A DNA stretch of 63,989 nt, filler included, from Collodictyon triciliatum (taxonomy: Eukaryota), in the NCBI GenBank assembly GCA_043381765.1. It is 5 parts of 5 records of this genome, joined end to end, with 100 filler letters (N's around TTAATTAATTAA, not from the genome) between each part and the next. Parts side by side here need not be neighbours in the genome. Positions count along the whole stretch, not along the records: positions 26,810 to 50,258 come from JBHJMP010000954.1; 4 more parts are not named here. One strand, 5' to 3'. A program made the translations under genes and the position numbers. Below are positions 27,793-35,454 of the stretch, in pieces. The number at the start of each line of letters is the position of its first letter. Positions within the stretch are counted from its first letter, which is position 1. The notes beneath the pieces are model-generated. The model ran no database searches. It was given only the letters and a program-made list of their open reading frames with translations, and had not been told where the DNA came from.

Positions 27793-30700
27793 ATGCAGCG
27801 ACTTCATCATTCTATGAGCACTCTCGATGACTTTATCGAACTGAAGCGAATGACCGGCGAGACTGAAGAGCAGCTTATGCGACGCGAGGGTCTTTGGCTC
27901 GAGCGCAGAGGACTTAACCGCGTACCGACTTCGATCCATCGCCTGCAGAATCTACGCCAGCTTTTCCTCCACAAGAACACGATCAACTCCATTCCAGACA
28001 ACATCGAATACCTCAACAGACTGGAGATCATATACCTCTCAGACAACAAGATCTCCAATATACCAACCACTATAGGCAAGCTCAAGCTGATGAAGAAGAT
28101 CTGGCTCTCCAACAACCAGCTCTCTTCCATTCCAGTGGAGTTTGCCCAGATGGTTCAGCTAGAGTACGTCAGGCTCTCTGGCAATCTGATAAGCGAGATT
28201 CCAGCGTCTTTCGGCGCACTTACGGCCATCCGCGACTTGGACCTCTCTGCCAATACGCTTTCTGCTCTCCCCGATACTCTATCCCAATTGCAATTCATAT
28301 CACAACTCAATATATCTGTGAACCAATTCCAAGATTTTCCCCTTGTGGTGCTCTCATTGACCTTACTGGAGGCCCTCTATATGAGTCGTAATAAGATATC
28401 GACCTTACCCTCTGATTGGAGAAATCACACCCGAATTCACACCCTCGATATATCTTGCAACGAGATAAGCCACCTCCCTAATCACATCAGCGGATTTGTG
28501 GTCCTTAAAAGGCTTTATTTCTCCCAAAATCAATTCACAGAAGCACCCATCGCATTATTCGACATAGCTTCACTTGAAGTTTTGGATATCTCGCTAAACG
28601 CACGACTGACATCTGTGCCGAATCAGATCGGAAAGATGGCCGCTCTTCGTGAATTAGTAATACACTCTTGCAAACTGATAACCCTCCCACAAGATATAAG
28701 TCGACTGACGCAACTTGAGCTTCTCAATGTATCTCGGAACATGATGACATCGTTGCCTGTTTTTCTTTGTCAACTGACCTTCCTACAAAAACTGAATCTA
28801 TCTGACAACAGACTGGAATCTATTCACAAGACTATTAGCTCTATGAGCAATCTCCATCAAATATCACTTAATGGGAATCGACTCAGTTCCCTTCCAAACA
28901 GCATCACGCAGCTTAGCCTGCTGGAAAGGTGCGAGCTTGATGGAAACATATTCAAGGGTGGAGAGGACAAAGTGTGGGAGGCCTACTTTAGAAACCGCGA
29001 GATACTGAATTTATCCAGCCAGAATCTGACTGAAATTCCTTCCTTTGTCGAAAAGCTTTCCCACATATCAGGGCTAGACATTAGTAACAACAACATTAGT
29101 TTCCTCCCCTCCTCAATTCGAAATTTCAAGAAGCTTTCAACCCTGAATATCAGCTACAATAAGTTGTCTCGAATTCCCGACGATGTTGGTTCTCTACCAT
29201 CGCTGTCAGAGATAAATGTATCTGGAAATCAGCTTACCGAAGATGAGCTCCTAGTCTGGCAGAACTGCTCCTTCAGAGATTCTAGCGTCAGCCTAATCGA
29301 AAAGAGACTCCAAGTATTTCCTGACTGCCTCAGTAGAATATGCTTCATAAAAAAGATTGACCTGAGCGGTAATTTCCTCCAAGAGATTCCAGAGTGTATT
29401 ACCCAGATGCGAGACTTGAAAGAAATAGTGGTGTCTAACAACAGGCTATCTTCTCTTCCAGACACTATATCCAAGCTCGACTTGACTAAAATTGATATTT
29501 CATCGAACCAAATGAGCGATGTAGAAAGAGTTGTATGGGAAACATACGCTACTAGAGGTACGAGTCTAAACCTGTCTCGCCGTAAGATAGAAGCAATCCC
29601 GGAGTGTCTCAGCAAACTGAGCAACATTCAAGACCTAGACATGTCCAACAATCTGATCGTTACAGTTCCTGGGTTCTTTGGAGGATTTTCTCATCTTGTT
29701 CACTTAAACATGCGCCAAAATCGCATTTCCAGCCTTCCTGATGAGATAAGTAAATTGAGCGGGGTCAGTGTGATGGAGTTTGAAGGCAATCTCTTTTCCA
29801 ACGGCGAAGAGTCTATGTGGATGTGCTTTTTTAGAAAAGAGGCATCCTTACATCTTAGCAACAAGGGAATTATATCCCTATCAGACTCACTTCGCAGGCT
29901 TACTCACGTTCGAAGACTAGATTTATCTGGGAATGGATTATCTGTCTTGACAGACTCTATTGGAATGATGGGCTCACTTGAATTTCTCAACCTATCAAAC
30001 AATATGATTACATATCTCCCTGATACGATTGGAAATTTGACGAATCTTCAGGAGCTATCTTTGAAGAACAACAAGCTAACACTTACTGGCGAGCCGCATC
30101 GCCAAGCAGCATACAGGGCGTTGAGGTCTAGATTCGAGATATCTGGGGTACAGCAAGCAGACCTCACTTCTGGCGACTCTGAATTCAACAGTAATGGGGA
30201 ACCCATTTACACAGTTTGTAAGTAAACCTTAGTCTTTTCTTTTTTCATTTCATTTCTTTTTTCTTTTCATTTCTCTTCTTTTCGTTATCCTTTTCTTTTT
30301 TCTTTTCTTTTTTATTTTCGTTATCCTTTTCTTTTCTTTTCTTTTCATTTCTTTTTTATTTTCGTTATCCTTTTCTTTTCTTTTCTTTTTTATTTTCGTT
30401 ATCCTTTTCCTTTATTCTCTTTTCGTTATCCTTTCTTTTCTTTTCTTTTCTTTTCTTTTCATTCAAAAATTCCGACAATTTTCCTTATCTGCATCAAAGC
30501 TAACACACGGAAATGATTGTAGCACTACCACCATCACTATGTTGCATACCCAAGTGTAGAATCAACCTGGTCGGAAACATCAGACTTCCTGCCAAGTTCC
30601 TACAACAATATCCCAAAATCTTGTTTGGTAAGCTCACCCCACTGGAAAGAGTCCTAAAATGCATGGGACTTTTTGAGAATCTCCCATCGTCAGATGAATT

Positions 30701-33700: not shown

Positions 33701-35454
33701 ACATCACATCCACAATACGCTACGAGGGTGAGGATGGCGACAGCAAGTCTGAGAGTTTGTCTTCCACGCCAACTGCTTTGACATCTGTCTCCAAGACCAA
33801 AGAAGGACTTGTGGCATCGTACCCGGTCTGGTGTAACACTGGAGATGTTGCTGGATGCGGCATCGAGTTTAACGGGGGGCTAGTCTTCTTTACACACCAA
33901 GGACGTTTGCTTCATCACACAATCCAAGTGGACAGCGAAGAAGTATTCCCGGCCGTTGGGTTGTATGGCTTTGGAAACTCGGCCCGCATCAACTTTGGCT
34001 CTTACCAGTTTAAACTGACAGCACCCGAGACCTTGATTCCCATTCTGTCGAATTACTTTGAGAGGACAGAGCTGACTAAAATCTGTCTGACATCGGACTC
34101 GATGGTTGTCTCTTACTTTGATGCGCTGCCATCTGTTGCCACAATCGCCGCCCACCAGCCATGGACAGACGACGTCCTGCGAAGCAACTACTTTGAGGCC
34201 GAGGTTATCAATGTCGGCAAATCAGGAATTCTGTATATCGGAGCGATGAAAAAGGACCTGAACCGCACAATGCCACCAGGTTCGATGCCAAAGTCCATCG
34301 GCTACCGCCTGGAAATCACGCGTATATCGGATGACACGCCGGAGGTCTCCCAGCCCAAGAGGTAAATTCCCTTGTGTCTTTTCTCCGTTTTCACAGTTCA
34401 AAGGATGACATAACACTTATTCCACATACGCTTCATCCATTGACTGCAACCATCGTTTTTTTTATAATGGTGATTGCGTATGCTTAATTGTTTTGACAAC
34501 CAACCACCACACAGCGGGCGCATCTACACGTTTGTGATTGAAACTGACAAGTTGTACGACCCCATCTGCGTCGGGTGCGGAGTCAACTACAAGAGCCGCT
34601 CGCTCTATCTGACGCTCAATGGGCAGCGCCTGGACATCCCCGACGCCAAGTGGCTCGAGAGTGGAGACATCCCCGCACTCCACGCAGCTGTCACGCTCAC
34701 ATCACAAGGCCAATGCGTGCGGGCCAAGTTCGACGCATCCACGCCACCAGCCGAGCCGCGCCTTACAGAGCAGTCCGACAGCACCCAGCGTGTGCGGTTC
34801 AACGAGTCGATTGTGCTGGAGTCCGGCTTTGCAGCAAACCTGACGCGAGACATCAGCTCGTTCTTTGGCGGGGGGCAGCAGCGGAGCCAGCAAAGTGACC
34901 GCAAGGCAAGCGACCTCGGGACGGGCGTCTCCAATCTGGACGACCCGGGCAGCCGCGACTCGTCGGCGCTGAAGCAGGAGTCTGTCCCGCTTGTGCTGGA
35001 GCGGCAGGCATCGTCCATGTCGGCAGTCTCGGCAAAGGTCGCCCAGTCGTGCCGCTACCTGGTTGTTGTGGAGGAGGCTGTCTTCCGTCCGGAGCAGCCA
35101 AAGTCCTTCACAAAGAAGGAGGTGACGCGCCGCAGATCAAGCGTCAGTGCCATGCAGAACGTCGGCGCGCAAATCGGCTCTGTGCTGAATCTGACCGAGC
35201 GCTCAGGCTCCGTCAGCCAGACGCGCACAAAGTCTGTGAGTGGCCAGGACAGAAAGGAGAGCCAGGCAGTCGGTGGCGGCTCGGTCTGGTCCAACCCCTT
35301 CCGCACAAGCCCCTCCAGTCACCCAGCAACGCTGCGCTTGGGTCAGGAAGGTGACTCCTTTGAGATGAGCCCACTCAGCCCGCCCCCGAGGCGCGAAAGG
35401 GCAAACACGCATGAGTCTATCGCGGAAGTGGACGAGGAGGCCGGCAATGTCTAG
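27793..35454 (+). CDS. LRR-TRP/polycystin (PKD2-like) cation channel-tandem SPRY fusion protein, 2299 aa
   Basis: Exons 27793-30217, 30523-33080, 33246-33255, 33395-34361 and 34515-35454 are all GT-AG bounded and total 6900 nt in one open frame. The protein has an LRR array (LxxLxLxxNxLxxLP), TOP-domain motifs (GPIRFRQLR, YPGDGF, WTDMQTRFISIEF), S4-S6 (FMSWARLLFYL..NFLIAILS) and two SPRY domains (YFEVEV..GDVAGCGI..FFT..FPAVG..INFG; NYFEAEV..VGCGVNY..LTLNGQ). Confidence 0.88.
30235..30460. repeat. Pyrimidine-rich intronic repeat with a recurring TTCGTTATCCTTT unit
   Basis: Five copies of TTCGTTATCC separated by (TTTTC)n tracts. Confidence 0.8.

What the first reader, a model, noticed from the sequence alone, without database searches (positions are those of the whole stretch)
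27793..35454. LRR array fused to a polycystin/TRP cation channel and tandem SPRY domains: candidate sensor-gated channel
Seen: three ORFs that look separate in the track splice via canonical GT-AG sites into one 6900-nt frame (2299 aa). It comprises ~800 aa of LRRs with no apparent signal peptide, a six-TM channel, two SPRY domains and a Ser-rich tail. Known: characterised TRP channels use ankyrin or MHR N-termini; PKD2 has no LRR or SPRY; LRRC8 pairs LRRs with a pannexin-like pore; SPRY domains occur in ryanodine receptors and TRIM immune proteins. I do not recognise this architecture. Inference: a one-component system in which a cytosolic LRR sensor gates a cation pore and SPRY domains recruit partners, functionally reminiscent of NLR resistosome channels or a flagellar sensory channel.
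Basis: partly seen in the sequence, partly recalled or inferred. Interest (0 to 1): 0.88.

Follow-up and report, generated by a model that had tools for sequence, protein, structure and literature searches.

The report
LRR–polycystin channel–SPRY fusion gene
This is one real, expressed protist gene that joins a long leucine-rich-repeat arm, a polycystin-2-type cation channel and two SPRY domains in a single protein, a combination found so far only in a small family in the flagellate Diphylleia.

Summary
The exons are 27793-30217, 30523-33080, a 10-nt micro-exon 33246-33255, 33395-34361 and 34515-35454.

RNA contigs from public runs support every junction and a poly(A) end at 35656. A direct 33080/33395 join is out of frame; the micro-exon restores it.

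- **Exon 1:** about 32 SHOC2-type LRRs, with no Pfam LRR cap family listed and a hydrophilic N-terminus.
- **Exon 2:** a polycystin-2-type channel. PKD_channel and Polycystin_dom pass Pfam cut-offs. The AlphaFold model has pLDDT 85.8 and matches solved PKD2 at TM 0.85.
- **Exons 4-5:** two SPRY domains and a moderately Ser-rich tail.

The architecture is conserved. The eight closest database clusters are all from the Diphylleia rotans transcriptome. Of the six scanned first, 6 of 6 carry LRR plus channel and 4 of 6 SPRY. One isoform adds a RasGEF domain.

I read it as a TRPP-like channel with cytosolic docking arms. That the LRR gates the pore is inference. An NLR-like role has no support. Verdict: new variant of a known kind.

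The parts
27793..30217 (+). Exon 1: start codon and about 32 leucine-rich repeats of 23 residues (aa 1-808). The last 16 repeats are organised as four supra-repeats of about 93 aa.
   Evidence: ORF and ATG. LRR_8 E 1.5e-68. Repeat spacing of 23 residues. Supra-repeat alignment. Best PDB sequence hit SHOC2, E 1.8e-63. Lake metatranscriptome contigs cover 28849-30217 in parts.
30218..30522 (+). Intron 1 (305 nt, GT..AG), mostly a CT-rich simple repeat.
   Evidence: Sequence. Splice sites. The loose end of an X4 contig at 30217 equals 30523-30535. Diphylleia proteins align without a break across the junction.
30523..33080 (+). Exon 2: helical linker, S1, extracellular polycystin (TOP) domain, S2-S6 with the pore, and conserved post-S6 helices (aa 809-1661).
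   Evidence: PKD_channel 8.1e-26 and Polycystin_dom 5.2e-18. PKD2 by sequence, E 3.2e-32. AlphaFold2 pLDDT 85.8 and pTM 0.78. Foldseek PKD2 9dwq_A, E 6.2e-24, TM 0.85.
31155..31745 (+). Polycystin/TOP domain between S1 and S2, with the conserved cysteine pair.
   Evidence: Pfam residues 212-408 of the frame that starts at 30522. C293 is invariant and C271 at least 90% conserved in 70 aligned sequences. Both align to two PKD2 cysteines.
31809..32453 (+). PKD_channel region (S2-S6 and pore). The filter position reads Gly-Asn where PKD2 has Gly-Asp.
   Evidence: Pfam residues 430-644. phmmer alignment to PKD2. Family alignment.
32763..33065 (+). Two conserved hydrophobic post-S6 helices (aa 1556-1588 and 1625-1656) separated by a charged loop. 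Read as a likely membrane hairpin.
   Evidence: Hydropathy peak of 2.47. Conserved in Diphylleia paralogues. Long helices in the model, pLDDT about 65-80. Charge counts.
33246..33255 (+). 10-nt micro-exon that restores the reading frame.
   Evidence: The X1 contig has 8 letters between 33080 and 33393. Unique string with AG/GT flanks; the frame is open only with it.
33395..34361 (+). Exon 4: linker, SPRY1 (about 33574-34002) and the N-terminal half of SPRY2.
   Evidence: SPRY E 2.3e-18. SPRYD3 4.6e-11 and RanBP9/10. X1, X2, X3 and X4 contigs.
34362..34514 (+). Intron 4 (153 nt, GT..AG), inside SPRY2.
   Evidence: An X1 contig skips 153 nt. Sequence. The SPRY1/SPRY2 alignment runs across the junction.
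34515..35454 (+). Exon 5: C-terminal half of SPRY2 (to about 34734), moderately Ser-rich tail with RKAS, RRRS and RKES motifs, and the stop codon.
   Evidence: Weak SPRY hit, E 0.081. blastp E 9e-07. Tail composition and motifs.
35455..35656 (+). 3' UTR up to the poly(A) site.
   Evidence: The X1 contig ends at 35656 with a loose end of 16 A.

Best explanation
One five-exon gene encodes a 2299-aa subunit of a polycystin-2-type (TRPP-like) channel that most likely forms a tetrameric cation channel.

**Shown**
- The gene structure, the splicing and the expression.
- The PKD2-like S1-S6 fold with an extracellular TOP domain.
- The N-terminal array of about 32 SHOC2-type LRRs.
- The C-terminal tandem SPRY.
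- The conservation of this order in a family otherwise seen only in Diphylleia rotans transcripts.

**Inferred**
- Both arms lie in the cytosol.
- They act as protein-docking platforms that tie the channel to partners. The partners are most plausibly Ras-type GTPase or phosphatase/kinase signalling, or the cytoskeleton.
- Partner binding or force on the LRR arm reaches the gate through the conserved helical linker before S1 and the helix that continues S6.
- The channel conducts cations. Its selectivity may differ from PKD2, because the filter Asp is Asn here.
For: **Gene model and RNA**
- Searches give the exons, the junctions, the poly(A) end and the frame.

**Channel identity**
- Pfam scores are 91.3 bits (cut-off 22.4) for PKD_channel and 65.7 bits (cut-off 23.6) for Polycystin_dom.
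- Human polycystin-2 matches at E 3.2e-32 over S1-S6.
- The AlphaFold2 model has pLDDT 85.8. Foldseek gives TM 0.81-0.86 to most PKD2 and PKD2L1 chains.
- The TOP-domain cysteine pair is conserved.

**Cytosolic LRR**
- The best solved relatives are SHOC2 (E 1.8e-63) and LRRD1.
- Pfam lists no LRR cap family. The N-terminus is hydrophilic.
- The array lies N-terminal to S1.

**Conservation of the fusion**
- The top 6 of 3535 hits match the whole of exon 2 at 32-38% identity.
- 6 of 6 have LRR plus channel and 4 of 6 have SPRY at E <= 0.001.
- 8 of the 10 best-scoring hits looked up are Diphylleia rotans.
- Window plus 8 Diphylleia rows form one clade, SH-aLRT 99.

**Cytosolic C-terminus and a Ras link**
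- Isoform P0154 carries RasGEF (E 4e-16) after the shared post-S6 region.
- The tail has RKAS, RRRS and RKES motifs.
Against: - No functional data of any kind exist here: conduction, tetramer formation, location and partners are all untested.
- The filter residue aligned to the PKD2 Asp is Asn in the window and in its nearest relative P0004. Six of the other seven Diphylleia rows aligned have Asp or Glu. Conduction or selectivity may therefore be altered.
- The number of membrane passes after S6 is not settled. One strongly hydrophobic helix and two weaker ones are present. An odd number would put the SPRY part outside the cell.
- The exon 1/exon 2 junction rests on a 13-letter overhang of one low-depth contig plus homology.
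- SHOC2-likeness is a likeness of repeat type and says nothing definite about the partner.
- The single-sequence model of the LRR arm was too poor to use (pLDDT 51.1).
Confidence: 0.6

Rival explanations
1. Mechanical tether model. The long LRR solenoid anchors the channel to the cytoskeleton or axoneme and acts as a gating spring, as the ankyrin array does in NOMPC. The protein would be a flagellar or feeding-groove mechanosensor.
For: - The cytosolic repeat array is very long (about 32 repeats) and regular, with a 4-repeat supra-period.
- The second-best solved LRR relative is LRRD1 (E 1.7e-59). It appears in entries whose chain names suggest very large assemblies. That these are axonemal is my recollection only.
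- Other protist PKD-type channels carry ankyrin arrays at the same place.
- That PKD2 is ciliary in several organisms is general knowledge. For Paramecium Pkd2 I saw only a search listing (PMC6627415).
Against: - Nothing here shows location or cytoskeletal binding.
- The paralogues have much shorter LRR arms. LRR matches reach only residues 150-570 in the Diphylleia proteins. That fits docking modules better than a tuned spring.
- The RasGEF-bearing isoform points to signalling.
Confidence: 0.2
2. Scaffold with little or no conduction, or an organellar channel. The channel body serves mainly as a membrane anchor that holds LRR and SPRY docking domains at a membrane.
For: - The filter Asp is replaced by Asn in the window and in P0004.
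- The cytosolic mass is about three times the channel core: 808 aa of LRR and about 640 aa C-terminal against about 500 aa of S1-S6.
Against: - The S5-pore-S6 region is the best conserved part of the family, including the S6 motif used for the locus scan.
- Acidic residues follow the Asn in the pore loop.
- The TOP domain and its cysteine pair are conserved.
Confidence: 0.1
3. Immune-type sensor. The LRR detects a foreign ligand and opens the pore in the manner of an NLR resistosome.
For: LRR arrays are the sensing part of many immune receptors, and the family has expanded into several paralogues in Diphylleia.
Against: - Pfam lists no NB-ARC, NACHT, TIR or death-fold domain.
- The LRRs are closest to SHOC2 and not to NLR LRRs.
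- The pore is a standing TRP-type pore and is not formed by oligomerisation on activation.
Confidence: 0.05
4. Artefact. The parts are separate neighbouring genes, or the assembly is chimeric and only looks like one gene.
For: The exon 1/exon 2 junction has only a 13-letter RNA overhang, and no single RNA contig spans the whole gene.
Against: - All four junctions have RNA support from runs that differ slightly from the window.
- The frame closes only with the RNA-defined micro-exon.
- Independently assembled Diphylleia transcripts encode the same order of domains in single ORFs and align straight through the exon 1/2 junction.
Confidence: 0.03

Closest known systems
Polycystin-2 / PKD2L1 (TRPP channels)
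   Same: - Six-helix channel fold with a large S1-S2 TOP domain, a conserved cysteine pair, a pore helix and S6.
- Pfam PKD_channel and Polycystin_dom pass their cut-offs.
- Foldseek TM is 0.85 to PKD2.
   Different: - An 808-aa cytosolic LRR arm sits in place of the short PKD2 N-terminus.
- There are extra conserved helices after S6, and tandem SPRY domains.
- Pfam lists no EF-hand family, unlike the PKD2 C-terminus. That animal PKD2 has an EF-hand and a coiled coil is recalled.
- The filter reads Gly-Asn where PKD2 reads Gly-Asp.
- In a tree of 35 rows the family forms its own clade.
Diphylleia rotans transcriptome proteins P0004-P0009, P0154, P0155 and P0157 (EukProt EP00002, unannotated)
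   Same: They have the same order LRR, linker, TOP, channel, post-S6 helices and SPRY. Identity is 32-38% over exon 2, and they form one clade with the window protein.
   Different: - Their LRR arms are shorter.
- One paralogue lacks SPRY. One isoform adds RasGEF.
- Most have Asp or Glu at the filter position.
SHOC2 (cytosolic LRR scaffold for MRAS and PP1C)
   Same: The LRR type and period match. It is the best solved sequence relative of exon 1, E 1.8e-63.
   Different: SHOC2 is a soluble protein of about 20 repeats. Here the array is longer and is fused to a channel. Partner binding was not tested.
NOMPC/TRPN, TRPA, and ankyrin-bearing protist PKD channels
   Same: All have a long cytosolic repeat array N-terminal to a TRP-type pore. 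Ankyrin plus PKD proteins occur in Balamuthia and in unnamed metagenome proteins. One unnamed protein has LRR plus ankyrin plus PKD.
   Different: The repeat is LRR only, not ankyrin. The LRR-plus-ankyrin protein P0064 falls in another clade.
LRRC8 (VRAC) channels
   Same: A cytosolic LRR domain lies on the same chain as a channel. The LRRC8A LRR matches exon 1 at E 8.9e-33.
   Different: In LRRC8 the LRR is C-terminal to an unrelated pore. That this pore is pannexin-like with four helices is recalled. Here the pore is TRP-type.
Ryanodine receptors
   Same: SPRY domains lie in the cytosolic part of a tetrameric cation channel. This is general knowledge and was not tested here.
   Different: Pfam lists no RyR or IP3R family. 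The SPRY here is closest to SPRYD3 and RanBP9/10 and lies C-terminal to the pore.

Membership tests
TRPP / polycystin-2-like channels | Pfam PKD_channel match above the curated cut-off | tested here: met
   91.3 bits against a cut-off of 22.4, E 8.1e-26.
TRPP / polycystin-2-like channels | Large polycystin (TOP) domain between S1 and S2, with a conserved cysteine pair | tested here: met
   Polycystin_dom scores 65.7 bits against a cut-off of 23.6. C271 and C293 (exon-2 numbering) are conserved in 70 sequences and align to two PKD2 cysteines.
TRPP / polycystin-2-like channels | Fold of the subunit matches solved PKD2 | tested here: met
   Model pLDDT 85.8. Foldseek hit 9dwq_A has E 6.2e-24, TM 0.85 normalised to the target and rmsd 3.7 over 495 columns.
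TRPP / polycystin-2-like channels | Acidic residue after the filter glycine (Gly-Asp in PKD2) | tested here: not met
   The window has Gly-Asn, followed by two Glu within four residues. Of the 8 Diphylleia rows aligned, P0004 also has Asn, and six of the other seven have Asp or Glu after the Gly. P0005 has Ala-Asp.
TRPP / polycystin-2-like channels | Tetramer that conducts cations | not testable with these tools
SHOC2-type cytosolic LRR proteins | 23-24-residue LRR units without extracellular cysteine caps or a signal peptide | tested here: met
   The spacing is 23 residues. Pfam lists no LRRNT or LRRCT family. The N-terminus is hydrophilic. SHOC2 is the best PDB relative.
SHOC2-type cytosolic LRR proteins | Binds a Ras-family GTPase and PP1 | not tested
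   The only indirect hint is the RasGEF domain on paralogue isoform P0154.
SPRY domain proteins | Pfam SPRY above the cut-off, twice | tested here: inconclusive
   SPRY1 scores 66.9 bits against a cut-off of 26.3. SPRY2 is split by an intron, so only a half could be scanned (13.5 bits). The spliced SPRY2 aligns to SPRY1 at E 9e-07. Paralogue P0005 has two SPRY stretches.
NLR / resistosome | Central NB-ARC or NACHT nucleotide-binding domain | tested here: not met
   Pfam lists no such family for any of the four exon translations.
LRRC8 / VRAC | Pannexin-like pore with a C-terminal LRR | tested here: not met
   The pore is PKD-type and the LRR is N-terminal. Only the LRR resembles LRRC8A.
TRPN / TRPA type channels | N-terminal ankyrin repeats | tested here: not met
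   Pfam lists no ankyrin family in the window protein.

The most novel reading that the evidence does not exclude
This family founds a separate TRP subfamily in which an LRR solenoid has taken the place that ankyrin repeats hold in other TRP channels. The LRR would read the state of a Ras-type GTPase, as SHOC2 reads MRAS. The protein would then be a cation channel gated directly by a small GTPase. The paralogue with its own RasGEF domain would close the loop between ion flux and Ras activation.
Probability: 0.12. Interest if true: 0.85.

Novelty: new variant of a known kind. Interest (0 to 1): 0.6.

Why it matters
- **A different cytosolic repeat on a TRP pore.** TRP channels are read through their cytosolic arms, and almost all that is known concerns ankyrin or melastatin-type arms. 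A polycystin-type pore with a SHOC2-type LRR arm and tandem SPRY domains shows that the TRP pore has been coupled to a different class of protein-recognition module.
- **A deep-branching lineage.** The family's only named relatives are from Diphylleia, a CRuMs flagellate. CRuMs branches near the base of Amorphea according to the abstract of PMC10492846 (listing).
- **A testable coupling.** If the arm controls gating, the family offers a natural test case for how a solenoid other than ankyrin couples to S6. The RasGEF-bearing paralogue suggests a direct link between Ras signalling and cation entry.
- **If only docking.** It is then a tidy example of domain accretion on a conserved pore.

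Tried and rejected
- **Word-based homology searches.** The channel exon found only a bird PKD1L2 among longer proteins and nothing among proteins of similar length. The full HMMER scan was needed.
- **Naming the organism.** A search with the neighbouring GT92 ORF found nothing. 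No whole genome is held, so paralogues in this genome could not be counted.
- **Recalled pre-S1 motif.** I recalled that the helical linker before S1 carries a motif like the pre-S1 region of TRPC/TRPA/TRPN channels. Pfam at E <= 10 and a PDB sequence search at E <= 10 gave no TRP hit, only chance-level HSP90 rows. I dropped the idea.
- **Post-S6 region.** It matched no Pfam family even at E <= 10.
- **LRR arm model.** AlphaFold2 without an alignment gave pLDDT 51.1. I did not use it and ran no fold search on it.
- **ESM Atlas.** Paralogue P0005 gave no usable hit. Exon 2 gave only ordinary polycystin, mucolipin and TRP clusters, none listing LRR or SPRY.
- **Metagenome scan with the family alignment.** It returned 17 short loci (1-5 kb) at 23-37% identity. 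0 of 17 had LRR, post-S6 or SPRY matches by tblastn. The contigs are too short for this to weigh much.
- **Rfam.** 0 matches on the whole window.
- **Ectocarpus paper PMC3879662.** In the passages I read, polycystin/REJ and LRR proteins are mentioned separately and not as a fusion.
- **Tetramer.** A tetramer of the channel was not sent to complex prediction because four cores exceed its size limit.

Full report
**1. What is in the sequence**

On the + strand four long stop-to-stop ORFs follow one another: 27733-30225, 30504-33149, 33346-34365 and 34474-35454. Their translations read as an LRR array, a multi-pass membrane protein, and SPRY-like sequence that is interrupted at 34363-34514. The first Met is at 27793, directly after the stop that opens the ORF at 27733.

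The splice sites read from the DNA are all GT..AG. A script that joins 27793-30217, 30523-33080, 33246-33255, 33395-34361 and 34515-35454 gives 6900 nt, one terminal stop and 2299 aa.

Two corrections apply. There are four long ORFs plus a micro-exon, not three ORFs. A direct 33080/33395 join is out of frame and stops after 11 codons. The 10-nt micro-exon at 33246-33255 restores the frame and is unique in that interval.

**2. RNA evidence**

A search of public runs found 20 rows holding part of 29800-34800, 18 of them on record as RNA. Most are lake or freshwater metatranscriptomes. I laid four of these runs.

- Run X1 is cDNA. Its contigs carry loose ends that look like a template-switch oligo, and one ends at 35656 in 16 A.
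- One X1 contig of 879 nt joins 33080 to 33393 with 8 letters between. Together with the AG at 33393-33394, these spell the micro-exon.
- One X1 contig of 755 nt skips 153 nt at 34359/34513. Shifted by two letters, this is the 34362-34514 intron.
- One contig of lake run X4 ends at 30217 and continues with 13 letters identical to 30523-30535 (compare).
- None of the 30 pieces listed lies within an intron. Seven further pieces were not shown.
- The contigs are 95-100% identical to the window apart from one X1 piece at 90-95%. They come from the same or a closely related organism.
- The weakest link is the exon 1/exon 2 junction, which has one 13-letter overhang at low depth.

**3. Domains**

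- **LRR.** Pfam gives LRR_8 at E 1.5e-68 on exon 1. A regular-expression scan shows units spaced 23 residues apart from aa 51 to 771. That amounts to about 32 units once the degenerate ones are counted. The last 16 units form four supra-repeats of about 93 aa, each opening with the same cap-like segment seen at the N-terminus. By sequence the closest solved proteins are SHOC2 (E 1.8e-63) and LRRD1 (E 1.7e-59). Plant receptor kinases and LRRC8A follow. Pfam lists no LRRNT or LRRCT cap family, and the first 45 residues are hydrophilic.
- **Channel.** PKD_channel scores E 8.1e-26 and Polycystin_dom 5.2e-18 on exon 2.
- **SPRY1.** SPRY scores E 2.3e-18 on exon 4. Its closest solved relatives are SPRYD3 and RanBP9/10.
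- **SPRY2.** It is cut by the last intron. Only its second half gives a weak Pfam hit (E 0.081). The spliced sequence aligns to SPRY1 across the junction (E 9e-07).
- **Tail.** The last 239 aa are 16.7% Ser against 10.7% overall, with RKAS, RRRS and RKES motifs.

**4. The channel body**

Human polycystin-2 is the best solved relative by sequence (E 3.2e-32 over S1-S6).

I aligned exon 2 with 69 of the listed hits and cluster members. I chose the Diphylleia proteins and hits of at most about 1100 aa. With this alignment AlphaFold2 gave pLDDT 85.8 and pTM 0.78. Foldseek put PKD2 and PKD2L1 chains on top: 9dwq_A has E 6.2e-24, TM 0.85 normalised to the target and rmsd 3.7.

The two cysteines of the TOP domain are conserved. 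C293 is invariant and C271 at least 90% conserved. They align to two PKD2 cysteines. That these form the C331-C344 disulfide is recalled; one PDB title names a C331S variant.

At the filter, PKD2 reads Gly-Asp and the window reads Gly-Asn followed by Phe-Glu-Phe-Glu.

After S6 the family shares a Pro-rich motif and three long helices. One of them (aa 1556-1588) is strongly hydrophobic. The loop before it is acidic, with 10 Asp/Glu and 1 Lys/Arg. The loop after it has 8 Lys/Arg and 6 Asp/Glu. Neither hydropathy nor the model, whose coordinates I could not inspect, settles how many of these helices cross the membrane.

**5. Relatives**

Word-based searches failed. The full HMMER scan found 3535 proteins at E <= 0.001.

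- **Top hits.** The top six (E 1e-160 to 1.5e-92, 32-38% identity) match exon 2 over most of its length, three of them end to end.
- **Domains of the top six.** 6 of 6 have LRR plus Polycystin_dom plus PKD_channel, and 4 of 6 also have SPRY at E <= 0.001. P0007 shows SPRY only weakly: 17.2 bits in its longer isoform, and E 3e-4 to the window's SPRY region. P0009 has none.
- **Source.** A look-up of the ten best-scoring hits shows that the first eight clusters are all from the Diphylleia rotans transcriptome of EukProt. The ninth is an unnamed ENA protein and the tenth a firefly protein.
- **Junction.** The Diphylleia proteins align straight through the exon 1/exon 2 junction. This independently supports the fusion.
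- **Spread among the proteins held.** Among 161 proteins, LRR similarity to the window was found in 13: 12 from Diphylleia and P0064. SPRY similarity was found in 6, all from Diphylleia.
- **Tree.** A quick IQ-TREE of 35 channel cores puts the window and 8 Diphylleia rows in one clade (SH-aLRT 99). The window lies inside it next to P0004, with internal nodes at only 80-86. The rows were my own selection from the top hits.
- **Organism.** It is therefore probably a diphyllatean or a close relative. This rests on one gene family only, and a second gene gave no hit.
- **Limit.** Hits below rank 150 were not listed, so the architecture may exist elsewhere.

**6. Wider context in databases**

Isoform P0154 of one Diphylleia paralogue carries a RasGEF domain (E 4e-16) after the shared post-S6 region. 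RasGEF acts on cytosolic GTPases. By homology this places the C-terminal part of the family in the cytosol.

Other PKD-type channels among the hits have N-terminal ankyrin repeats. They are P0030 from Balamuthia, named 'TRP-like ion channel Pkd2' by its source, and the unnamed P0012 and P0027. The unnamed P0064 has LRR plus ankyrin plus PKD and falls in another clade.

**7. Literature**

Six full-text searches found no paper that describes an LRR-polycystin-SPRY protein or polycystins in Diphyllatea.

A 2026 preprint on choanoflagellate TRP channels (10.64898/2026.06.15.732245, passages read) has 0 occurrences of LRR, leucine or SPRY. [quoted passage not shown] It also treats a family named TRPW and lists a WD40 model among the Pfam domains it searched for. 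That TRPW is the WD40-bearing family is my reading of those passages. If so, TRP pores with unusual repeat arms are already being catalogued.

The library lacks most subscription journals, and supplements were closed.

**8. How it most likely works**

Shown: one expressed gene, a PKD2-type subunit, a cytosolic-type LRR arm before S1, a tandem SPRY after the pore, and a domain order conserved across paralogues that are only about a third identical.

Inferred: four subunits form a cation pore. Four LRR solenoids and eight SPRY domains hang below it and bind partners. The signal reaches the gate through the well-conserved, confidently modelled helical linker between LRR and S1 (pLDDT mostly above 90 in the first 120 residues of exon 2) and through the helix that continues S6.

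The SHOC2-type repeats and the RasGEF paralogue make Ras-type signalling the most attractive partner class. A cytoskeletal tether is the main rival. The Asn at the filter leaves selectivity open.

**9. Verdict**

- The protein is a member of the polycystin-2-like channels by fold and profile, with one defining residue changed.
- The combination with LRR and SPRY is a new variant of a known kind. It is present in unannotated transcriptome data but, as far as my searches reach, not described.

Noticed in passing
window 30229-30469: Intron 1 is almost entirely a CT-rich simple repeat of short ctttt-type units. The read-laying tool skipped it as a repeat.
   Followed up: no
window 35910-38649 (+): A separate downstream transcript. 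X1 contigs lie at 35910-36186 and over 36193-36500. The ORF 37138-38649 encodes a Myb DNA-binding protein (Myb_DNA-binding, E 5.9e-34).
   Followed up: partly
window 40251-42713 (-): A single 821-aa ORF with a GT92 glycosyltransferase domain (E 3.8e-23). The word-based search found no relative.
   Followed up: partly
window 45039-45452 (-): Another LRR-coding stretch on the minus strand, about 25-37% identical to repeats of exon 1. No second PKD-type channel was found in the window.
   Followed up: no
P0154 (Diphylleia rotans isoform, 2237 aa), residues 2026-2201: A paralogue of the family carries a C-terminal RasGEF domain after LRR, channel and a weak SPRY. A channel fused to a Ras activator is unusual in its own right.
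   Followed up: partly
P0064 (unnamed ENA protein, 1373 aa); P0012, P0027 (unnamed); P0030 (Balamuthia mandrillaris): These are polycystin-type channels with N-terminal LRR plus ankyrin (P0064) or ankyrin alone. They fall outside the Diphylleia clade. Repeat arms were therefore added to PKD-type pores more than once.
   Followed up: partly
window about 32300-32330 (pore loop, aa 1400-1410): The filter position aligned to the PKD2 Asp is Asn in the window and in its nearest relative P0004. Six of the other seven Diphylleia rows aligned have Asp or Glu.
   Followed up: partly
window 29800-34800 in public runs: Near-identical fragments occur in lake-water metatranscriptomes of several studies. 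Three were laid, with contigs mostly 99% or more identical. The organism appears to be a freshwater protist that expresses this gene in nature.
   Followed up: partly
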